Origin: Escherichia coli
GTDB taxonomy: Bacteria; Pseudomonadota; Gammaproteobacteria; Enterobacterales; Enterobacteriaceae
Assembly: GCF_003334405.1 (NCBI RefSeq)
Contig: NZ_QOWM01000011.1
DNA: 64,000 nucleotides
Reading direction: 5' to 3' (one strand)
The position numbers were made by a program, and so were the translations under genes. Below, in pieces: positions 815 to 56,830 of this stretch. The notes under the pieces are model-generated. The model did no database searches and was not told the DNA's origin. It saw only the letters and a program-made list of their open reading frames with translations. Every line of letters begins with the position of its first letter. The stretch's first letter is position 1.

Positions 815-2053
815 ATGAAAGCATTGACTTATCACGGCCCACATCACGTTCAGGTAGAAAATGTTCCCGATCCGGGCGTTGAACAGGCAGATGATATTAT
901 TCTGCGTATTACGGCAACGGCGATCTGTGGCTCTGACCTCCATCTTTATCGAGGCAAAATACCTCAGGTTAAACATGGCGATATTTTTGGTCATGAATTT
1001 ATGGGGGAAGTAGTTGAAACCGGAAAGGACGTAAAAAATTTGCAAAAAGGCGACCGAGTGGTAATTCCGTTCGTCATTGCTTGTGGCGACTGTTTTTTCT
1101 GTCGATTGCAACAATATGCCGCCTGCGAAAATACCAATGCGGGTAAAGGCGCTGCGCTCAATAAAAAACAGATACCAGCTCCAGCGGCATTGTTTGGTTA
1201 TAGTCACCTGTATGGCGGCGTTCCTGGTGGGCAGGCGGAATATGTCCGCGTCCCTAAAGGGAATGTGGGGCCGTTTAAAGTACCGCCTTTGCTTTCAGAT
1301 GATAAAGCGCTTTTCCTTTCTGATATTCTGCCAACGGCATGGCAGGCAGCAAAAAATGCGCAGATCCAACAAGGTTCAAGCGTTGCAGTCTATGGTGCTG
1401 GTCCTGTGGGATTGTTGACAATCGCCTGTGCACGGTTGCTCGGTGCGGAACAGATTTTTGTTGTTGATCATCATCCCTACCGCTTGCATTTCGCCGCCGA
1501 CCGCTACGGCGCGATCCCGATTAATTTTGATGAAGACAGCGATCCGGCACAGTCAATTATTGAACAAACGGCAGGTCACCGGGGCGTGGATGCAGTAATA
1601 GACGCCGTCGGTTTTGAAGCGAAAGGCAGCACCACGGAAACGGTGCTGACTAACCTGAAACTGGAGGGCAGCAGCGGTAAAGCGTTGCGTCAGTGTATTG
1701 CGGCGGTCAGGCGTGGCGGCATTGTTAGCGTACCGGGCGTCTACGCTGGATTTATTCACGGTTTCCTGTTTGGCGACGCCTTTGATAAAGGGTTGTCGTT
1801 TAAAATGGGACAGACCCACGTTCACGCATGGCTGGGAGAATTATTACCGTTAATTGAGAAAGGATTACTGAAACCAGAAGAAATTGTTACCCACTATATG
1901 CCGTTTGAAGAGGCCGCCCGGGGATATGAGATTTTCGAAAAACGTGAAGAGGAGTGCCGTAAGGTGATTCTGGTACCCGGTGCACAAAGCGCAGAGGCGG
2001 CGCAGAAGGCGGTTTCAGGTCTGGTGAATGCGATGCCGGGGGGAACAATATGA
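815..2053 (+). CDS. ybdR: Zn-dependent alcohol dehydrogenase-like oxidoreductase
   Basis: 412-aa ORF with GHE.MGEVVE and CGSDLH zinc-ADH motifs and a GxGxxG Rossmann motif; GGAGG Shine-Dalgarno upstream. Confidence 0.9.
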
Positions 2054-2694: not shown

Positions 2695-2923
2695 TTTTAC
2701 TCCATGTCGTCGGTGCTGCGAGTGTCGCAGATAAACATACCCAAAAGAAAACCCTCACCGTCAGGCGGCGAGGGTTTAACTCACATGATGATACTGACTG
2801 TTGCTCACTCTTTGAAGTGATTTGCGTCACATTCAGGGAATTCCTCAATGCAGCGCATTATGTATAAATCTTAATCGCCTTGGTTTATGGAAGACGAATT
2901 AGCGTGTTTTGTAAATCAGATGA

Positions 2924-3730
2924 TTAATAACCCGCTTTATCAATCACAAAGGTTTTGCCACAGTTACCTGGGTGAGGTTGTGGCAAGAATGAGTTTGCAG
3001 AAAGCGGAGCGTTGATGGCGTCAGCTTTGATCGAGATCTGAATTTCAGTCAAATACGCAGGGTTACCCTGGCACGTTAGCTTAACTGCTTTCACGTTCTC
3101 TTTTCCCCAGCTTTTGGCAAAGGCGGCGTCAAAGTCACGGCGGCTCACTGTTTTACCGTAATTATCCGCAAGGAATTTTCCGGCTTCGCTCTCTTTAATT
3201 TCTTGATTCAGGCGTACCATCGTACCGAAGTATGCGTCCGGATCAAAACCAAAGCAGGCACCGTGTTTGGCATATTCGTAGCGTTCCAGGCAGGAACGTC
3301 CGCCAGCTCCTGGCATGACTTCACTTAGTTTAGCGGCCGTTTCCAGTGATAATCCGGTTTCCGGCGATGAACACATTCGGCTGGCGCGCGCTTCTGGTAG
3401 ATTCGGGATTGGGCGAGTAGCGCAACCGAAGCGCATCCAGCGGCGTTCATCAACACCACGGGCAGCAACCGATTTAGGCAATCCTGGCCACAGACCATGT
3501 ACGGTCAGAAAATCAGCTTTGTTGGTCGTTTCGGTTTGCAGGCGACATTCATCTCGTTCGTTACGATTTCGATCGTGTTGACTCTGGCAAAATCCGGTTT
3601 GCCAGGAGAGGGCCAGGACATAGCGATCAAAATCGCCATACTGTTTTGCCTGCAACGCTAAGGCGTTGGCAGAAGAGAAGGGAAGCAGAGAAACCGCGAG
3701 CAACGCGGCGTTACGCCAGAATGCTTTCAT
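2924..3730 (-). CDS. rna: Ribonuclease I (RNase T2 family), periplasmic
   Basis: ORF 2924..3748; the start at the second in-frame Met gives the signal peptide MKAFWRNAALLAVSLL... and the remembered 268-aa length. Confidence 0.85.
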   Translation of the reverse strand: MKAFWRNAALLAVSLLPFSSANALALQAKQYGDFDRYVLALSWQTGFCQSQHDRNRNERDECRLQTETTNKADFLTVHGLWPGLPKSVAARGVDERRWMRFGCATRPIPNLPEARASRMCSSPETGLSLETAAKLSEVMPGAGGRSCLERYEYAKHGACFGFDPDAYFGTMVRLNQEIKESEAGKFLADNYGKTVSRRDFDAAFAKSWGKENVKAVKLTCQGNPAYLTEIQISIKADAINAPLSANSFLPQPHPGNCGKTFVIDKAGY

Positions 3731-3778
3731 AATGGGTGTGGAACTCATACATACACTGAATACTATCTATTAAATCAT

Positions 3779-3811
3779 AAAAAAGCCCGCCAGGTGGGCT
3801 TACCTGGCGGG
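3779..3811 (-). terminator. Rho-independent terminator downstream of citT
   Basis: Perfect 11-bp stem (gcccgccaggt/acctggcgggc) followed on the minus strand by a six-U run. Confidence 0.7.
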
Positions 3812-3843
3812 CGTGATGATTTATTCAGCGTTTGGCGAACGTA

Positions 3844-5307
3844 TTAGTTCCACATGGCGAGAATCGGCCAGCCAACCAACAGCAACATAGAGATGTAAAT
3901 CACCCCGAAGATTGCGCCAAGACGCCAGTAATCTTTTGATTTCACATAGCCACAGCCGTAAATAATCACCCCAGGACCGGTTGCATACGGCGTCAGACAG
4001 CCCATGATACCGATAGACAGCACCAGCAGGATACACAGTTGTTCCATTGGTACGCCCGGAATACCTTTACCGACGGCCAGAATAACCGGCAGCATGGTTG
4101 CGGTGTGCGCAGACAGGCTGGCAAACAGGTAGTGTGCAAAGTAGAACACCAGAACCAGTACAATCACCGTTGCGTTTGGTGAGAATCCTTCCAGGTGCGT
4201 ACTCATGGTACCGGCGAACCAGTCAATAAAACCAGAACGAGTCAGGCCGTTAGCCATCACAACCAGAGTTGCCAGGTTGACCAGTGTGTTCCATGCGCTG
4301 TTATAGCGGGTAATGTCTTTCCAAGGCACAACGTGCAGGGCCAGCATTAGCGAAACTGCCAGCAGACCAACCGCAGTAGCATTAATGACTTCACTGCCAA
4401 ATACCCACAAACCTAAGCTGAGCAATACAAGGCCAATCAGTGTCCACTCTCTGCGTGTCAGCGCACCCATGGTTTTCAGTTCATCACCCGCCCAGGTTGC
4501 CACTTCTTCACTGTGTGTGATTTCCGGTTTGTACAGCACGTAGGAAAGCCACGGCGCAATGATAAGCAAGATAACCCCAACCGGCAGGAAGCAGAGGAAC
4601 CACTGCAACCAGCTAATCTGGATACCGGCAATTTTGCTGACGAACTCCAGACCCAGCACGTTTGGTGCCGCACCGGTGACAAACATGGACGAACTCAGAC
4701 TGGTACTAATGACCATCATCCACATCAAATAGCCGCCAATACGACGCGCGGACGGATCGTTCGGGAATGATTTAAACAACGGCGGCAGGTTTTTAATGAC
4801 CGGAAAAACCGTACCCCCGGTACGCGCGGTGTTGGAAGGTGTAAACGGTGCCAGCAGAATGTCGATAATGACAATCGCATAACCCAACGTCAGCGTGCGT
4901 TTGCCCATGAATTTCACCAGGAAAAGGGCAATGCGACGACCTAACCCGGAAACTTCATACCCTAATGCAAAAATAAATGCGCCAAATACCAGCCATACCG
5001 TGGTGCTGGAAAAACCAGCCAGGCCCCATTTCAGCGCCTGTTTTTGCGCATTAAACGCTGGGTCAGCTAATTCTTTGGCATCAAAGAGCAGGTAATTACT
5101 GCCAATAACGCAAATAGTAACCGCAATAAAACTGATCGCTGTTGCCGGAATTGGCTCGAGGATCATGCCGACAATCATTGCCACAAACACAGCGAAGTAA
5201 TGCCATGCCTGCGGCGGCATACCGTCGGGGACAGGGATAAGAAACATGACACCCATCACCACCAGTGGGGCCAATAGTTTCCATATATTATCTTTTGCTA
5301 AAGACAT
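3844..5307 (-). CDS. citT: Citrate:succinate antiporter
   Basis: 487-aa polytopic membrane ORF recognised as CitT; adjacent to the citrate lyase genes. Confidence 0.9.
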   Translation of the reverse strand: MSLAKDNIWKLLAPLVVMGVMFLIPVPDGMPPQAWHYFAVFVAMIVGMILEPIPATAISFIAVTICVIGSNYLLFDAKELADPAFNAQKQALKWGLAGFSSTTVWLVFGAFIFALGYEVSGLGRRIALFLVKFMGKRTLTLGYAIVIIDILLAPFTPSNTARTGGTVFPVIKNLPPLFKSFPNDPSARRIGGYLMWMMVISTSLSSSMFVTGAAPNVLGLEFVSKIAGIQISWLQWFLCFLPVGVILLIIAPWLSYVLYKPEITHSEEVATWAGDELKTMGALTRREWTLIGLVLLSLGLWVFGSEVINATAVGLLAVSLMLALHVVPWKDITRYNSAWNTLVNLATLVVMANGLTRSGFIDWFAGTMSTHLEGFSPNATVIVLVLVFYFAHYLFASLSAHTATMLPVILAVGKGIPGVPMEQLCILLVLSIGIMGCLTPYATGPGVIIYGCGYVKSKDYWRLGAIFGVIYISMLLLVGWPILAMWN

Positions 5308-15283: not shown

Positions 15284-15844
15284 ATGAACGTGAGTAAATA
15301 TGTCGCTATCTTTTCCTTTGTTTTTATTCAGTTAATCAGCGTTGGTAAAGTTTTTGCTAACGCAGATGAGTGGATGACAACGTTTAGAGAAAATATTGCA
15401 CAAACCTGGCAACAGCCTGAACATTATGATTTATATATTCCTGCCATCACCTGGCATGCACGTTTCGCTTACGACAAAGAAAAAACCGATCGCTATAACG
15501 AGCGACCGTGGGGTGGCGGTTTTGGCCTGTCGCGTTGGGATGAAAAAGGAAACTGGCATGGCCTGTATGCCATGGCATTTAAGGACTCGTGGAACAAATG
15601 GGAACCGATTGCCGGATACGGATGGGAAAGTACCTGGCGACCGCTGGCGGATGAAAATTTTCATTTAGGTCTGGGATTCACCGCTGGCGTAACGGCACGC
15701 GATAACTGGAATTACATCCCTCTCCCGGTTCTACTGCCATTGGCCTCCGTGGGTTATGGCCCAGTGACTTTTCAGATGACCTACATTCCGGGTACCTACA
15801 ACAATGGCAATGTGTACTTTGCCTGGATGCGCTTTCAGTTTTGA
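15284..15844 (+). CDS. pagP: Lipid A palmitoyltransferase (outer-membrane beta-barrel)
   Basis: ORF 15260..15844; start at [10 protein letters not shown]... gives the 186-aa precursor with a signal peptide. Confidence 0.9.
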
Positions 15845-16018
15845 GACAAATGAAGTTTTAGTAACTTCTTTAAAATCAATAGCTAAAATAAGTAACATCA
15901 AAAATAACGCGACTTTTATCACTTTTTAGTAAAGTTACACTGGACAAAGCGTACCACAATTGGTGTACTGGTAACCGACACAGCATTTGTGTCTATTTTT
16001 CATGTAAAGGTAATTTTG

Positions 16019-16228
16019 ATGTCTAAGATTAAAGGTAACGTTAAGTGGTTTAATGAGTCCAAAGGATTCGGTTTCATTACTCCGGAAGACGGCAGCAAAG
16101 ACGTGTTCGTACACTTCTCTGCAATCCAGACTAATGGTTTTAAAACTCTTGCTGAAGGTCAGCGCGTAGAGTTCGAAATCACTAACGGTGCCAAAGGCCC
16201 TTCTGCTGCAAACGTAATCGCTCTGTAA
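16019..16228 (+). CDS. cspE: Cold-shock-domain protein E
   Basis: ORF 15989..16228; start at [20 protein letters not shown] (69 aa) with the RNP1 motif KGFGFI. Confidence 0.95.
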
Positions 16229-16244
16229 GATACGTCAGCAAGAA

Positions 16245-16277
16245 TTCAAAACCCGCTTAATCAGCGGGTTTTTTTTG
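16245..16277. terminator. Bidirectional rho-independent terminator between cspE and crcB
   Basis: aaaacccgcttaatcagcgggttttttt: 7-bp stem flanked by an A-run and a T-run. Confidence 0.8.
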
Positions 16278-43256: not shown

Positions 43257-43982
43257 TTAATGCAGGATTTTCGCGAGGAAGTCTTTTGCGCGGTCCGATT
43301 TCGGATCATCGAAGAAAGCGTCTTTCGGCGAGTCTTCGACAATTTTACCCTCGTCCATAAAGATCACCCGATTCGCCACTTTACGGGCAAAGCCCATTTC
43401 GTGGGTCACCACCATCATGGTCATTCCTTCGTTCGCCAGTTCCACCATCACGTCCAGTACTTCGTTGATCATCTCCGGATCCAGCGCCGATGTCGGTTCG
43501 TCAAACAGCATCGCAATAGGATCCATACACAACGCGCGAGCGATTGCCACACGCTGCTGCTGACCGCCGGAAAGCTGCGCCGGAAACTTATTGGCGTGAG
43601 CAGAAAGCCCGACACGCTCCAGCAGTTTCAGGGCTTTTTCACGAGCCGGCGCTTTATCGCGTTTAAGCACTTTCACCTGCGCCAGGGTCAGGTTTTCGAT
43701 AATCGACAGATGAGGGAACAGCTCGAAATGCTGGAATACCATCCCGACGCGGGAACGCAGCTTTGCCAGATCGGTTTTCTTGTCGTTAACCACGATACCA
43801 TCGACGGTGATTTCACCTTGCTGCACCGGTTCGAGGCCGTTGACGGTTTTAATCAGCGTTGATTTGCCGGAACCAGACGGGCCGCAAACCACCACCACTT
43901 CGCCTTTTTTCACTTCGGTTGAGCAGTCGGTCAGCACCTGAAAGTGACCATACCATTTTGAAACATTTTTCAGGGTAATCAT
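43257..43982 (-). CDS. gltL: Glutamate/aspartate ABC transporter ATP-binding protein
   Basis: 241-aa ORF with Walker [10 protein letters not shown] and ABC signature LSGGQQQR. Confidence 0.95.
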
Positions 43983-44656
43983 TATGCTGTCCTTCTTTTC
44001 AAGTAGCTGACCAACAACGACGCGCTAAGACTAATAACGAAATAAACAAATCCGGCAAACAGGATCATCTCAACCTGCGTACCATCACGCTCACCAATGG
44101 TTGAGGCGGTACGGAAGAAATCGGCCAGGGATAACACATACACCAGTGAGGTATCCTGGAACAGTACGATGCCCTGAGTGAGCAGCAGCGGCACCATCGC
44201 GCGGAACGCCTGCGGCAGAATAATCAGTTTCATCGACTGCCAGTGAGTCATTCCCAACGCCAGCGCGGCGCTCGATTGACCACGAGAAATACTTTGAATA
44301 CCAGCACGGATAATCTCTGAATAGTAGGCCGCTTCAAACATCGAAAACGCCACCATCGCCGAAATTAAACGGATATCATTTTTTGGCGATAATCCCAGCA
44401 CGTTTTGCAGAAAACCCGGCACGATCAGGTAAAACCACAGCAAAACCATAACTAAAGGAATCGAGCGGAATACGTTAACGTAGGCTTTGGCAAACCACGC
44501 CACGGGCGCAAAGCTGGATAAACGCATCACCGCCAGCATCGTGCCCCACAAAATACCAATCACTACCGCCGTGACGGTGATTTTCAGGGTGATCACCAGC
44601 CCGTCGAGCAGATATGGCAGGGAAGGGACAATGGAACTCCAGTCAAACTCGTACAT
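43982..44656 (-). CDS. gltK: Glutamate/aspartate ABC transporter permease
   Basis: 224-aa membrane ORF; 1-nt overlap with gltL. Confidence 0.9.
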
Positions 44657-45396
44657 TATTTGCCCCCCATGTTGCCAGGCAGGCGAACTTTACGTTCAAC
44701 CAGCGTCATCACCAGCATGATAAAAGCGTTAATCAACACATACGCCAGCGTAATGGCGGTAAACGACTCCCAGGCATGGGCTGAGTAATCGAGCAATTTA
44801 CCCGCCTGCGCCGCCATATCCACCAGACCGATAGTCGAGGCGATGGCGGAGTTTTTCACCAGGTTCATCATCTCTGAGGTCATCGGCGGGACGATAACGC
44901 GATAAGCATTAGGCAGCAGTACGTATCGATAAGCCTGCGGTAGCGTCAGGCCCATCGCCAGCGCGGCATTTTTTTGCCCTCGCGGCAGCGACTGAATCGC
45001 GGCGCGTACCTGTTCGCAAACACGGGCGGCGGTAAACAGCCCCAGGCAGAGCATGGATGAAAGGAAAAACTGAATATTGGGATCCAGCTCGGCCTTAAAC
45101 CACATGCCGATTTTCTCCGGCAGCAGCTCCGGGATCACCAGATACCAGGTAAAGAATTGCACAATCAACGGCACGTTGCGGAACAGTTCGACATACAACG
45201 TACCCAGACCAGAGAGAAAACGGTTTGGAACGGTACGTAAAATGCCGAAAAATGAACCGACGAGGAAAGCGATAATCCAGGCGCAGATCGACAAAGCGAT
45301 CGTCACCTGAAAACCACTCCAGATCCAACCAAGATAGGTGGTGTTGCCGAACGGGGCTTGTTGTAAAAAAATACCCCAGTTCCAGTCTATAGACAT
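44656..45396 (-). CDS. gltJ: Glutamate/aspartate ABC transporter permease
   Basis: 246-aa membrane ORF; 1-nt overlap with gltK. Confidence 0.9.
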
Positions 45397-45407
45397 AAAT
45401 CTACTCC

Positions 45408-45443
45408 AGAAAAAAGAGGGTAGCAGCGTTAACTGCTACCCTC
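45408..45443 (-). terminator. Intrinsic terminator in the gltI-gltJ intergenic region (likely SroC 3' end)
   Basis: Perfect 11-bp stem gagggtagcag/ctgctaccctc followed on the minus strand by six U; ends about 2 nt before the gltJ Shine-Dalgarno. Confidence 0.7.
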
Positions 45444-45570
45444 GAAGATTGTTACCCAGCGTATTGCGGTTTTCAGGCCCGATGGGGAACGACCATCAGG
45501 CGTATAGTCTGTCCGTGCTACGTAACAATCGAGAGGGCTGGAATTTCCGCCCCTGGTTCTTGTAATTAGT
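45410..45570 (-). ncRNA. sroC: SroC small RNA region (3'-derived from the gltI transcript)
   Basis: Position in the gltI-gltJ intergenic region ending at the intrinsic terminator; assignment from remembered K-12 annotation; 5' end not determinable from sequence. Confidence 0.45.
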
Positions 45571-46474
45571 TCAGTGCCTTGTCATTCGGTTCTTTGAACA
45601 GTGCTTTCATTTCGTCTGACAGTTCGAAATTCATGTTCAGGTTTTTCGGCGGAATTGGATTTTTGAACCACTTATCAAACCATTTTTCCGCTTCACCGGA
45701 GGTCTGCACCTGAGCGATGGTGTCATCCATCAGCTTTTTGAACTGCGGATCATCTTTACGCAACATACAACCGTAGGCCTCCTGAGACTGCGGCTTGCCG
45801 ACGATTTCCCAGTTGTCTGGTTTCTTCGCTTTCGCACGTTCACCGGCCAGCAGAGCGTCATCCATCATAAAGGCAACGGCACGACCGCTTTCCAGGGTGC
45901 GGAAAGAGTCACCGTGATCTTTGGCGCTGATGATGCGCATATTCATTTTTTGCTCTTCATTCAGTTTGTTGAGCAAAACTTCAGAGGTAGTGCCGGAAGT
46001 GACGACTACGGCTTTGTCTTTCAGGTTGGCAAAATCTTTGATATCGCCACCCTTTTTGGTCAACAGGCGCGTACCGACCACGAAAATAGTGTCAGAGAAA
46101 GCCGCCTGTTTTTGGCGTTCGACGTTGTTGGTGGTAGAACCACATTCAAAATCGAAAGTGCCGTTTTGCAGCAGTGGAATACGGTTTTGTGAGGTAATCG
46201 GAATCAGTTTTACCTGCAAGTCCGGTTTGTTGAGTTTCTTTTTCACTGCTTCAACAATGGCGTTGGAGTAATCCTGCGAGTAACCCACCACTTTTTGCTG
46301 ATTGTCGTAATAAGAGAAAGGCACTGAAGATTCACGGTGACCGACGACAATCACACCGTTTTTGGCGATTTTGTCCAGAGTACTGCCCGCTGCCGGGGCG
46401 GCGTCATCTGCCTGTGCCAGTCCTGCGGAAAGCGCCAGGGCGAGGATTGCTGTGGCAGGTTTACGTAATTGCAT
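45566..46474 (-). CDS. gltI: Glutamate/aspartate periplasmic binding protein
   Basis: ORF 45566..46549 (TTG-initiated in the track); probable true start MQLRKPATAILALALSAGLAQA signal peptide (302 aa). Confidence 0.9.
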   Translation of the reverse strand: MQLRKPATAILALALSAGLAQADDAAPAAGSTLDKIAKNGVIVVGHRESSVPFSYYDNQQKVVGYSQDYSNAIVEAVKKKLNKPDLQVKLIPITSQNRIPLLQNGTFDFECGSTTNNVERQKQAAFSDTIFVVGTRLLTKKGGDIKDFANLKDKAVVVTSGTTSEVLLNKLNEEQKMNMRIISAKDHGDSFRTLESGRAVAFMMDDALLAGERAKAKKPDNWEIVGKPQSQEAYGCMLRKDDPQFKKLMDDTIAQVQTSGEAEKWFDKWFKNPIPPKNLNMNFELSDEMKALFKEPNDKALN

Positions 46475-46870
46475 ATCCAACTCCTTTATCTTCTGCGTTA
46501 AGAACGCATGGATACCCGTTGTGAGTGTTTGTGTTGTTATCGTCTGCAACTTTATTGTGCAGTGTTGTGCCTGTTAGGTAACATTTAGTTTGGCTAAATG
46601 TAAAGATATTGCTGTTTTATTGTTTGTTTTTGCGAGATGCGCCGCACCATTCCGAAGCAAAATTCTTAAAATGCACTCTTTTAGTGCTACCGCTGGATTA
46701 CTGTGGTGCAACTAGGTTGTACTGATGCTGATTCAGGGTTTGCCTTGTATAACAAAGCAATAGATGTGCCAAAGTTGGATAGGAGAATATTGTTATCCGG
46801 ATAATGCACTGATGCCGCATCCGGTGAGCGTGCCGAAATATGGGATGTATTCCGGCACGATAAGAAGGGA

Positions 46871-53957: not shown

Positions 53958-54032
53958 TGGCTGGGGTACGAGGATTCGAACCTCGGAATGCCGGAATCAG
54001 AATCCGGTGCCTTACCGCTTGGCGATACCCCA
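53958..54032 (-). tRNA. glnV: tRNA-Gln (anticodon CUG)
   Basis: 75-nt reverse complement matches the tRNA-Gln cloverleaf with anticodon loop TTCTGAT and 3' CCA; could equally be called glnX. Confidence 0.9.
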
Positions 54033-54079
54033 ACAAATTGGTTTTGAATTTGCCGAACATATTCGACACATTCAGAATT

Positions 54080-54156
54080 TGGTGGCTACGACGGGATTCG
54101 AACCTGTGACCCCATCATTATGAGTGATGTGCTCTAACCAACTGAGCTACGTAGCC
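54080..54156 (-). tRNA. metU: tRNA-Met elongator (anticodon CAU)
   Basis: 77-nt reverse complement GGCTACGTAGCTCAGTTGG...CCA with anticodon loop CTCATAA. Confidence 0.9.
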
Positions 54157-54171
54157 AGATTGTTTCTTCGA

Positions 54172-54246
54172 TGGCTGGGGTACCTGGATTCGAACCAGGG
54201 AATGCCGGTATCAAAAACCGGTGCCTTACCGCTTGGCGATACCCCA
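54172..54246 (-). tRNA. glnW: tRNA-Gln (anticodon UUG)
   Basis: 75-nt tRNA-Gln with anticodon loop TTTTGAT; could equally be called glnU. Confidence 0.9.
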
Positions 54247-54269
54247 TCCGTACAACGCTTTCTGGTGAA

Positions 54270-54354
54270 TGGTGCGGGAGGCGAGACTTGAACTCGCACA
54301 CCTTGCGGCGCCAGAACCTAAATCTGGTGCGTCTACCAATTTCGCCACTCCCGC
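54270..54354 (-). tRNA. leuW: tRNA-Leu (anticodon UAG)
   Basis: 85-nt reverse complement GCGGGAGTGGCGAAATTGG...CCA with a long variable arm and anticodon TAG. Confidence 0.9.
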
Positions 54355-54363
54355 AAAAAAAGA

Positions 54364-54440
54364 TGGTGGCTACGACGGGATTCGAACCTGTGACCCCATC
54401 ATTATGAGTGATGTGCTCTAACCAACTGAGCTACGTAGCC
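54364..54440 (-). tRNA. metT: tRNA-Met elongator (anticodon CAU)
   Basis: 77-nt copy of the same tRNA-Met as 54080..54156. Confidence 0.9.
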
Positions 54441-56730: not shown

Positions 56731-56830
56731 TGCCGGATGCGGCGTGAACGCCTTATCCGGCCTACAAAAGCATGAAAATTCAATATATTGCAGGAGCTGC
56801 GTAGGCCTGATAAGCGTAGCGCATCAGGCA
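56731..56830. repeat. REP/BIME cluster between asnB and umpH
   Basis: tgccggatgcggcgtgaacgccttatccggcctac and gtaggcctgataagcgtagcgcatcaggc match REP consensus palindromes. Confidence 0.65.

What the first reader, a model, noticed from the sequence alone, without database searches (positions are those of the whole stretch)
45397..45565. Intrinsic terminator abuts the gltJ ribosome-binding site in the gltI-gltJ spacer
A perfect 11-bp hairpin plus six-U tract (45408..45443, minus strand) ends about 2 nt before the gltJ Shine-Dalgarno (GGAGTAG). This layout should release most transcripts after gltI, generating the 3'-derived SroC RNA and setting binding-protein to permease stoichiometry. Only read-through transcripts translate gltJKL, and the hairpin could also occlude the gltJ RBS.
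Basis: partly seen in the sequence, partly recalled or inferred. Interest (0 to 1): 0.4.

Follow-up and report, generated by a model that had tools for sequence, protein, structure and literature searches.

The report
Known SroC terminator before gltJ
This is the already described leaky transcription terminator between the E. coli gltI and gltJ genes; it forms the 3' end of the SroC small RNA and lets some transcripts continue into gltJKL, so the finding is real but ordinary.

Summary
On the minus strand, a stem of 11 Watson-Crick pairs plus one G-U pair (45443..45416, -21.3 kcal/mol) is followed by U6 (45415..45410) and CU. The gltJ GGAG (45407..45404) and ATG (45396) come next. No dinucleotide shuffle of the window produced such a site (0 of 200).

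The element is the terminator of SroC. Rfam RF00369 matches full length at 45408..45570 (174.8 bits), the span of MG1655 sroC (b4763). Published Term-seq places 3' ends at positions equivalent to 45410 (LB OD 0.4) and 45416 (LB OD 2.0), and they are Rho-independent.

The "leaky terminator, SroC, binding-protein excess" model was published by Miyakoshi et al. in 2015. E. coli Northern blots show both ~1200-nt and ~2500-nt transcripts.

- "Most transcripts" terminating is unquantified. One dataset gives 102 reads upstream and 82 downstream.
- The terminator hairpin does not pair with the gltJ ribosome-binding site. A separate, weak, poorly conserved local hairpin does.

Minor new points:
- The U-tract lies 0-5 nt from the SD in 67 of 74 distinct enterobacterial sequences.
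- The E. coli stem is longer than in most of these sequences (12 pairs; 9 is the commonest).

Verdict: already known, low interest.

The parts
45566..46474 (-). gltI coding sequence (periplasmic Glu/Asp-binding protein, 302 aa); stop codon TAA at 45568..45566
   Evidence: ORF list, RefSeq annotation of identical DNA, translation and mass
45408..45570 (-). SroC small RNA (163 nt). Its 5' end lies in the last sense codon of gltI; its 3' end is the terminator
   Evidence: Rfam RF00369 full-length match, 174.8 bits against a gathering score of 45. MG1655 sroC b4763 at 686681..686843 maps onto exactly this span
45416..45443 (-). Terminator stem-loop: 11 Watson-Crick pairs + 1 G-U pair, loop UAAC, -21.3 kcal/mol
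   Evidence: The core GGGTAGC/GCTACCC is invariant in 62 aligned orthologous sequences
45410..45415 (-). U6 tract of the terminator. Published Term-seq 3' ends are equivalent to 45410 (LB OD 0.4) and 45416 (LB OD 2.0, at the stem base)
   Evidence: Adams et al. 2021 supplementary files 1 and 3. Coordinates converted with window = MG1655 - 641273 and checked against the printed flanking sequence
45404..45407 (-). gltJ Shine-Dalgarno core GGAG, 2 nt after the U tract and 7 nt before the ATG
   Evidence: GGAG or GAGG sits at the same place in all 74 distinct orthologous sequences
44656..45396 (-). gltJ coding sequence (permease, 246 aa), start ATG at 45396..45394
   Evidence: The N-terminus MSIDWNWG is conserved in 80 orthologous loci
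45380..45411 (-). Predicted weak local hairpin of the gltJ translation start region. UUCUGG pairs with CUGGAA (codons 5-6) and GUAGAU pairs with GUCUAU. G1, G2 and G4 of the SD are paired and the AU of the AUG lies in the loop
   Evidence: 59-nt fragment -11.8 kcal/mol, z = -1.8, 7 of 200 shuffles as stable. Found only in Escherichia and some Citrobacter. This is a prediction only
43257..44656 (-). gltK (43982..44656) and gltL (43257..43982), the downstream cistrons reached only by read-through

Best explanation
The element is the Rho-independent terminator inside the E. coli gltI-sroC-gltJKL operon. RNA polymerase coming from the gltI promoter transcribes the stem-loop 45443..45416 and releases part of the transcripts in the U tract (3' end at 45410). 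This gives a gltI-sroC mRNA of about 1.2 kb. RNase E then cuts this RNA at the gltI stop codon (45570) and frees the 163-nt Hfq-bound SroC, which pairs with the GcvB small RNA and triggers its decay. Polymerases that read through continue straight into gltJ, whose GGAG starts 2 nt after the U tract, and produce the full operon mRNA for the membrane components. Shown: the sequence features, the family match, the in vivo 3' ends, Rho independence, both transcript sizes, and a large excess of GltI protein over GltJ, GltK and GltL. Inferred: what fraction terminates, and how much of the protein excess comes from termination rather than from translation efficiency or mRNA stability.
For: Sequence and fold. 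Not chance. Rfam sroC, full length, 174.8 bits. RefSeq and MG1655 annotation gltI / sroC b4763 / gltJ on DNA identical to the window. Term-seq 3' ends at MG1655 686683 (= 45410, 42,928 reads, LB OD 0.4) and 686689 (= 45416, LB OD 2.0), with Rho score 1.10 ('No') and intrinsic-terminator score 3.71 (threshold 3.0). Miyakoshi et al. 2015 (PMC4474525) state that SroC has a 5' monophosphate, needs RNase E, and has its 3' end at a conserved rho-independent terminator; that a 'leaky Rho-independent terminator' gives the monocistronic gltI mRNA; and that the E. coli homologues are functional. E. coli Northern blot with a ~1200-nt gltI-sroC transcript and a ~2500-nt longer transcript, and the main RNase E site exactly at the SroC 5' end (PMC11347164). 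Conservation: hairpin plus T-run next to the SD in 67 of 74 distinct orthologous sequences, with lineage-specific apical stem extensions that keep pairing. Protein: molar GltI:GltJ:GltK:GltL of about 27-42: 1: 1.4-1.5: 4-6.5 in strain NCM3722 (GltK range from conditions C2, C3, C7; GltK reads 0 in sample A1-1), all rising together under carbon limitation (Mori et al. 2021, Dataset EV9).
Against: No direct measurement of termination efficiency was available. DirectRNA-seq coverage in 800-nt windows was 102 upstream and 82 downstream without bicyclomycin. If taken at face value, most polymerases read through. However, this assay was not designed for that question, and MG1655 carries an IS5 about 100 bp upstream of gltI that this window lacks. 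The intrinsic-terminator score of 3.71 is only just above threshold. The experimental work on SroC biogenesis was done mainly in Salmonella, whose stem is shorter (9 pairs).
Confidence: 0.93

Rival explanations
1. The hairpin acts mainly as an RNA-stability element. Full-length gltIJKL mRNA is cut downstream and 3' exonucleases stop at the stem, so the 3' ends arise by processing and not by termination.
For: In LB OD 2.0 the dominant 3' end is at the stem base (45416) with no U tail. Seven Yersiniaceae sequences keep a hairpin 7-9 nt before the gltJ SD but have no U tract. DirectRNA-seq coverage is similar on both sides of the site.
Against: A T-run of 5-9 follows the stem in 67 of 74 distinct sequences. 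In exponential phase the 3' end is the last U of the tract, as expected for intrinsic termination. Plasmid gltI-sroC constructs without gltJKL produce SroC, with a separate band for read-through to the vector terminator. Trimming of the U tail after termination explains the 45416 end equally well.
Confidence: 0.12
2. The excess of GltI over GltJKL is set mostly by translation (strong gltI start region, weak gltJ start region) and mRNA decay. On this reading the terminator's main job is to make SroC, not to set stoichiometry.
For: The molar protein ratio GltI:GltJ is 27-42, against a coverage ratio of only about 1.2 across the terminator. The gltI 5' UTR carries a C/A-rich translation enhancer (Miyakoshi 2015 introduction). 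The gltJ SD is a 4-nt GGAG predicted to be partly paired, with an opening cost of 7-8.5 kcal/mol.
Against: The coverage numbers are small, come from a method made for Rho scoring, and come from an IS5-carrying strain. Membrane proteins GltJ and GltK are hard to quantify, and GltL is 4-6.5 times GltJ in the same data. The local gltJ hairpin is weak (z = -1.8) and not conserved. Two transcript classes do exist.
Confidence: 0.3
3. In read-through mRNA the terminator hairpin itself blocks the gltJ ribosome-binding site.
For: The stem (-47..-20 relative to the A of the ATG) overlaps the upstream part of the region a 30S subunit is generally held to cover (established knowledge, not tested here). 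The stem-to-ATG distance is held at 17-23 nt in orthologues.
Against: No SD or AUG nucleotide pairs with the stem. SD accessibility and opening energy are the same with and without the hairpin: 7.8 against 8.5 kcal/mol for -13..+3. The U-rich stretch between stem and SD is the kind of sequence usually linked to good 30S binding through protein S1 (established knowledge).
Confidence: 0.07
4. Read-through is regulated. A cis alternative structure or a trans factor (Hfq, GcvB, a protein) changes termination efficiency and so sets SroC output against transporter output.
For: [quoted passage not shown] The sequence CAATCTTCGAGGGTAGC before and in the 5' arm is nearly invariant. GcvB influences SroC production.
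Against: No competing structure is predicted. Every terminator pair has probability 0.89-1.00 in 155-nt and 285-nt contexts. The reported GcvB effect is on RNase E cleavage, not on termination.
Confidence: 0.1

Closest known systems
SroC sRNA (Rfam RF00369; E. coli b4763; Vogel et al. 2003; Miyakoshi et al. 2015)
   Same: It is this element. It has the same locus (gltI-gltJ spacer), the same 163-nt span, the same terminator and the same published model of a leaky terminator plus RNase E processing.
   Different: Nothing essential. The characterised Salmonella version has a 9-pair stem, U8 and a 1-nt gap to the SD. E. coli has a 12-pair stem, U6 and a 2-nt gap.
Other sRNAs released at terminators inside or at the end of operons: GlnZ (glnA-glnLG), OppZ (oppABCDF), MalH (malEFG), SdhX
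   Same: An early or terminal intrinsic terminator plus RNase E cleavage yields an Hfq-bound sRNA from the mRNA of the first, most abundant cistron (review PMC9438474; the GlnZ paper is listed).
   Different: SroC mainly sponges another sRNA (GcvB) and does not repress mRNAs directly. I did not compare terminator-to-RBS distances in those operons.
Intercistronic stem-loops (REP elements) after binding-protein genes, e.g. malE-malF, hisJ-hisQ
   Same: A stable hairpin after the first cistron of an ABC-transporter operon is associated with excess binding protein. Miyakoshi et al. contrast the two strategies.
   Different: Those hairpins protect upstream mRNA from 3' exonucleases and have no U tract. 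Here a U tract, a 3' end within it and Rho independence indicate termination. The Yersiniaceae versions without a U tract may work in the REP-like way.

Membership tests
SroC RNA (Rfam RF00369) | Covariance-model score above the curated gathering threshold, over the full model | tested here: met
   174.8 bits against a gathering score of 45, model positions 1-163 of 163, E = 7.4e-37
SroC RNA (Rfam RF00369) | Located between gltI (ybeJ) and gltJ, on the same strand, overlapping the gltI stop codon | tested here: met
   The span is identical to MG1655 b4763
SroC RNA (Rfam RF00369) | 5' end made by RNase E; RNA bound by Hfq; pairs with GcvB at sites BS1 and BS2 | not testable with these tools
   Taken from the literature only. 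These include the statement that the E. coli homologues are functional. gcvB is not in the window, so I did not check the pairing
Intrinsic (Rho-independent) terminator | G+C-rich stem-loop directly followed by a U-rich tract | tested here: met
   12 pairs (7 G-C), -21.3 kcal/mol, U6 starting at the base of the stem. 0 of 200 shuffles give such a site
Intrinsic (Rho-independent) terminator | In vivo RNA 3' ends map in the U tract | tested here: met
   Published Term-seq on identical sequence gives the last U (= 45410) in LB OD 0.4 and the stem base (= 45416) in LB OD 2.0. This is a literature look-up, not a new experiment
Intrinsic (Rho-independent) terminator | Independent of Rho | tested here: met
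   Rho score 1.10, flagged 'No', with bicyclomycin. Intrinsic score 3.71, above the 3.0 threshold
Intrinsic (Rho-independent) terminator | Release by RNA polymerase alone in vitro; measured efficiency | not testable with these tools
   No data found. The searches gave nothing
RBS-sequestering hairpin (translational occlusion) | SD or start codon base-paired within the hairpin in question | tested here: not met
   The terminator stem ends 8 nt before GGAG. No SD nucleotide pairs with it, and the opening energy is unchanged by its presence. A different, weak local hairpin pairs the SD but is not conserved

The most novel reading that the evidence does not exclude
The conserved 0-5-nt gap between the U tract and the gltJ SD could be functional and not just compact gene packing. 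The same U run would then serve three roles: the terminator tract, the Hfq-binding tail of SroC, and the upstream ribosome landing region of gltJ on read-through mRNA. In that case Hfq, or GcvB bound to the SroC module in cis, could tune gltJKL translation or read-through. Two observations hint that the position next to gltJ is kept: two loci with an expanded spacer retain the intact hairpin-U tract copy next to gltJ while the SroC-proximal copy has decayed, and hairpins without a U tract sit at the same distance in Yersiniaceae.
Probability: 0.12. Interest if true: 0.4.

Novelty: already known. Interest (0 to 1): 0.1.

Why it matters
The element matters biologically. It splits one operon's output into abundant binding-protein mRNA, a regulatory RNA that removes the global repressor GcvB, and a smaller amount of full transporter mRNA. 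All of this has been published since 2003-2015 and is annotated in E. coli K-12.

This check adds little:
- It confirms that the window carries the standard allele.
- It shows that the U-tract/SD juxtaposition is a family-wide feature.
- It shows that E. coli has an unusually long stem.
- It shows that the idea of RBS occlusion by the terminator hairpin has no support from folding.

The one open quantitative question is how much of the 27-42-fold GltI:GltJ excess is due to termination.

Tried and rejected
- **Chance:** rejected. 0 of 200 shuffles of the 64-kb window give a comparable site.
- **Rho-dependent end:** rejected on published bicyclomycin data (Rho score 1.10).
- **Antiterminator or alternative pairing of the 5' arm:** none found. 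The Rfam consensus draws the basal helix of the long SroC stem over UCGAG. In E. coli, however, all 12 terminator pairs have probability 0.89-1.00 in 155-nt and 285-nt contexts.
- **Terminator hairpin pairing with the SD:** not seen in any context from -24 to -304.
- **Conserved SD-sequestering hairpin:** the local hairpin 45411..45380 is marginal (z = -1.8). It is present only in Escherichia and some Citrobacter. The mean opening cost over 63 distinct orthologues is 5.0 kcal/mol, against 8.0 in E. coli.
- **Formal covariation count on alignment A1:** not run. The 7-pair core never varies, and loop-length differences misalign the apical and basal pairs. I used per-sequence folding instead (a first version of that script had a bug and is superseded).
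- **Internal promoter for gltJKL:** the consensus scan finds none on the minus strand. It also misses the gltI promoter, so this is a weak negative.
- **Quantitative termination or synthesis-rate data:** Li 2014 and Schmidt 2016 are not held. No supplements are held for Choe 2022. The TERMITe supplements contain no glt entry. PMC4958250 was not informative.
- **Plus-strand ORF 45338..45565 (75 aa, GTG) spanning the spacer**: not pursued. The conservation pattern is that of an RNA stem, with an invariant stem and a variable loop.

Full report
**What is in the sequence**

On the minus strand the spacer between the gltI stop codon (TAA, 45568..45566) and the gltJ start codon (ATG, 45396..45394) is 169 nt. 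Its 3' part reads GAGGGUAGCAGU-UAAC-GCUGCUACCCUC (45443..45416), then UUUUUU (45415..45410), then CU, GGAG (45407..45404), UAGAUUU and AUG.

The stem has 11 Watson-Crick pairs and one apical U-G pair, with a free energy of -21.3 kcal/mol.

The site is not a chance event. Sites with at least 11 perfect pairs, a 3-8-nt loop and T6 within 2 nt occur twice in the real 64-kb window and never in 200 dinucleotide-preserving shuffles.

**Identity**

The window is E. coli DNA. The 401 bases around the site match 5422 of 5426 complete E. coli genomes, and 5384 of them match at 99% identity or more. The match is annotated gltI / gltJ.

Rfam's sroC model (RF00369) matches 45408..45570 on the minus strand over its full 163 positions, at 174.8 bits against a gathering score of 45. 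In MG1655 the ncRNA sroC (b4763) is annotated at 686681..686843. With the offset fixed by the gltJ start codon (window = MG1655 - 641273), this is exactly 45408..45570. The hairpin is therefore the terminator of a named, annotated small RNA.

**Experimental evidence already published**

- *Miyakoshi et al. 2015 (PMC4474525).* SroC carries a 5' monophosphate and has no promoter of its own. It needs RNase E for its 5' end. [quoted passage not shown]
- *The same paper's discussion.* One promoter gives both the full gltIJKL mRNA and the short gltI mRNA. The binding protein is needed in much higher stoichiometry. The E. coli SroC and GcvB homologues were shown to be functional.
- *Adams et al. 2021 (PMC7815308).* For E. 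coli itself, Term-seq lists a 3' end at 686683 (minus) in LB OD 0.4 with 42,928 reads. This is the last U of the tract, window 45410. In LB OD 2.0 the end is at 686689, the last base of the stem, window 45416. The flanking sequences printed in that table are identical to the window. The Rho score is 1.10 ('No') and the intrinsic-terminator score is 3.71, above the threshold of 3.0.
- *A 2024 E. coli study (PMC11347164).* Northern blots show a ~1200-nt gltI-sroC transcript and a ~2500-nt transcript that includes sroC. [quoted passage not shown] It places the main RNase E site exactly at the SroC 5' end.

**How much terminates**

I found no measured efficiency.

The only accessible numbers are DirectRNA-seq coverage in 800-nt windows. 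Without bicyclomycin there are 102 reads upstream and 82 downstream; with it, 333 and 294. These figures show no large drop. However, they are small, they come from a method built for Rho scoring, and they come from MG1655.

MG1655 has an IS5 about 100 bp upstream of gltI. The window lacks this insertion: the lnt-gltI gap is 397 bp.

At the protein level, Mori et al. 2021 (Dataset EV9, strain NCM3722) give absolute mass fractions. Converted with masses computed from the window's own genes, they give molar ratios GltI:GltJ:GltK:GltL of about 27-42: 1: 1.4-1.5: 4-6.5 (the GltK range comes from conditions C2, C3 and C7, because GltK reads 0 in sample A1-1). All four proteins rise together along the carbon-limitation series. 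That dataset was later subject to an author correction.

Differential expression within the operon is therefore real and large. Its division among termination, translation efficiency and mRNA decay is not known. The gltI leader contains a translation enhancer, so translation is a serious contributor.

**Does the hairpin occlude the gltJ RBS?**

The stem spans -47..-20 relative to the A of the ATG, and GGAG spans -11..-8. I folded contexts running from -24, -50, the SroC 5' end or -304 to +40. In all of them the SD nucleotides never pair with the terminator stem.

The free energy needed to open -13..+3 is 8.5 kcal/mol without the hairpin. With it, the cost is 7.8, 7.1 and 7.0 kcal/mol in progressively longer contexts.

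What does pair with the SD is a separate local hairpin (45411..45380). UUCUGG pairs with CUGGAA of codons 5-6, and GUAGAU pairs with GUCUAU, which leaves the AU of the AUG in the loop. This structure is marginal: -11.8 kcal/mol for the 59-nt fragment that contains it, z = -1.8, with 7 of 200 shuffles as stable. It is confined to Escherichia and some Citrobacter. Over 63 distinct orthologues the mean opening cost is 5.0 kcal/mol.

A steric effect of a stable stem 20 nt upstream of the start codon cannot be excluded by computation. Occlusion by base pairing is not supported.

I also looked for an antiterminator. In nascent-RNA contexts of 155 and 285 nt, every terminator pair has probability 0.89-1.00, so there is no competing fold at equilibrium.

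**Comparative view**

A scan of species-representative genomes with GltJ returned 80 loci from Enterobacteriaceae plus some Serratia, Rahnella and Symbiopectobacterium. E. coli SroC finds a homologue in 70 of them.

Among 74 distinct -74..+3 sequences, 67 have a stem followed by a run of 5-9 T. The run ends 0-5 nt before GGAG, and the gap is 1-3 nt in 61 of them. The stem ends 17-23 nt before the ATG.

The 7-pair core GGGTAGC/GCTACCC is invariant in 62 aligned sequences, so it carries no covariation signal. The apical part does differ by lineage while staying paired:
- Most genera have 9 pairs with a 3-nt loop (-13.1 kcal/mol).
- Buttiauxella has 10 pairs.
- Kluyvera has 11-13 pairs.
- E. coli has 12 pairs (-21.3 kcal/mol).
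- E. albertii has the same insertion with one mismatch.

Seven Yersiniaceae sequences keep a hairpin 7-9 nt before the SD but have no U tract. In two loci with an expanded spacer (L057, L066), the SroC-proximal hairpin copy has decayed. The copy next to gltJ is intact and keeps its U tract.

Whether it is selected or simply inherited cannot be decided here.

**Verdict**

Its two additions, 'most transcripts' and 'hairpin occludes the RBS', are respectively unquantified and unsupported.

Novelty: already known. Interest: low.

Noticed in passing
window 45416 and 45410 (minus): Published Term-seq gives the SroC 3' end at the last U of the tract in LB OD 0.4 but at the stem base, with no U tail, in LB OD 2.0. 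In M63 no sense 3' end is listed. A tail-less SroC in stationary phase would be expected to bind Hfq differently.
   Followed up: partly
window 45446 (plus strand): A weak antisense 3' end (965 reads, M63 OD 0.4; MG1655 686719 +) lies 3 nt past the same hairpin read on the other strand. This suggests low antisense transcription across the gltJ 5' end that stops at the stem, which is not followed by a U tract on that strand.
   Followed up: no
window 46475..46870: The lnt-gltI gap is 397 bp. MG1655 and its derivative ER1709 carry an IS5 (IS5D/insH3) about 100 bp upstream of gltI, and this window lacks it. Expression data from K-12 strains may therefore not reflect this strain's gltI promoter context.
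   Followed up: partly
window 45416..45443 compared with L003-L082: The Escherichia terminator stem carries a lineage-specific apical insertion that lengthens it from 9 to 12 pairs (-13.1 to -21.3 kcal/mol). Kluyvera and Buttiauxella have independent, different extensions. E. albertii has the Escherichia insertion with one mismatch.
   Followed up: partly
L057 1800..1990 and L066 (same layout): The gltI-gltJ spacer is expanded by about 150 nt. The hairpin at the end of the SroC homologue is degenerate (GGGTAGCATTGCTGCCC, no U tract). A second, intact hairpin + U6 copy sits directly before the gltJ SD.
   Followed up: partly
L073, L074, L076, L077, L079, L080, L082 (about 1950..2000): The Rahnella, most Serratia and one unclassified Enterobacterales (L080) loci have no nhmmer match to SroC and no U tract. 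Most of them still have a short G+C-rich hairpin 7-9 nt upstream of the gltJ SD, which may be a stability element and not a terminator.
   Followed up: no
window 3785..3812 (minus): This is the only other site in the window with at least 11 perfect pairs plus T6: CCCGCCAGGT-AAGCCC-ACCTGGCGGG followed by CTTTTTT. It lies between the 487-aa ORF 3844..5307 and the ORF 2924..3748.
   Followed up: no
window 2740..2848 (-), 15834..16276 (+), 53961..54440 (-), 56766..56808 (+): Other Rfam matches at gathering score: rnk leader (124.9 bits), a cspA-type thermoregulator (124.1 bits, on a cold-shock-protein gene), five tRNA genes in a cluster, and ES036/CssrF (41.1 bits, just above threshold).
   Followed up: no
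window 45338..45565 (plus): A 75-aa GTG-initiated ORF on the opposite strand spans almost exactly the gltI-gltJ spacer. There is no evidence that it is a gene, and the conservation pattern fits an RNA structure.
   Followed up: no
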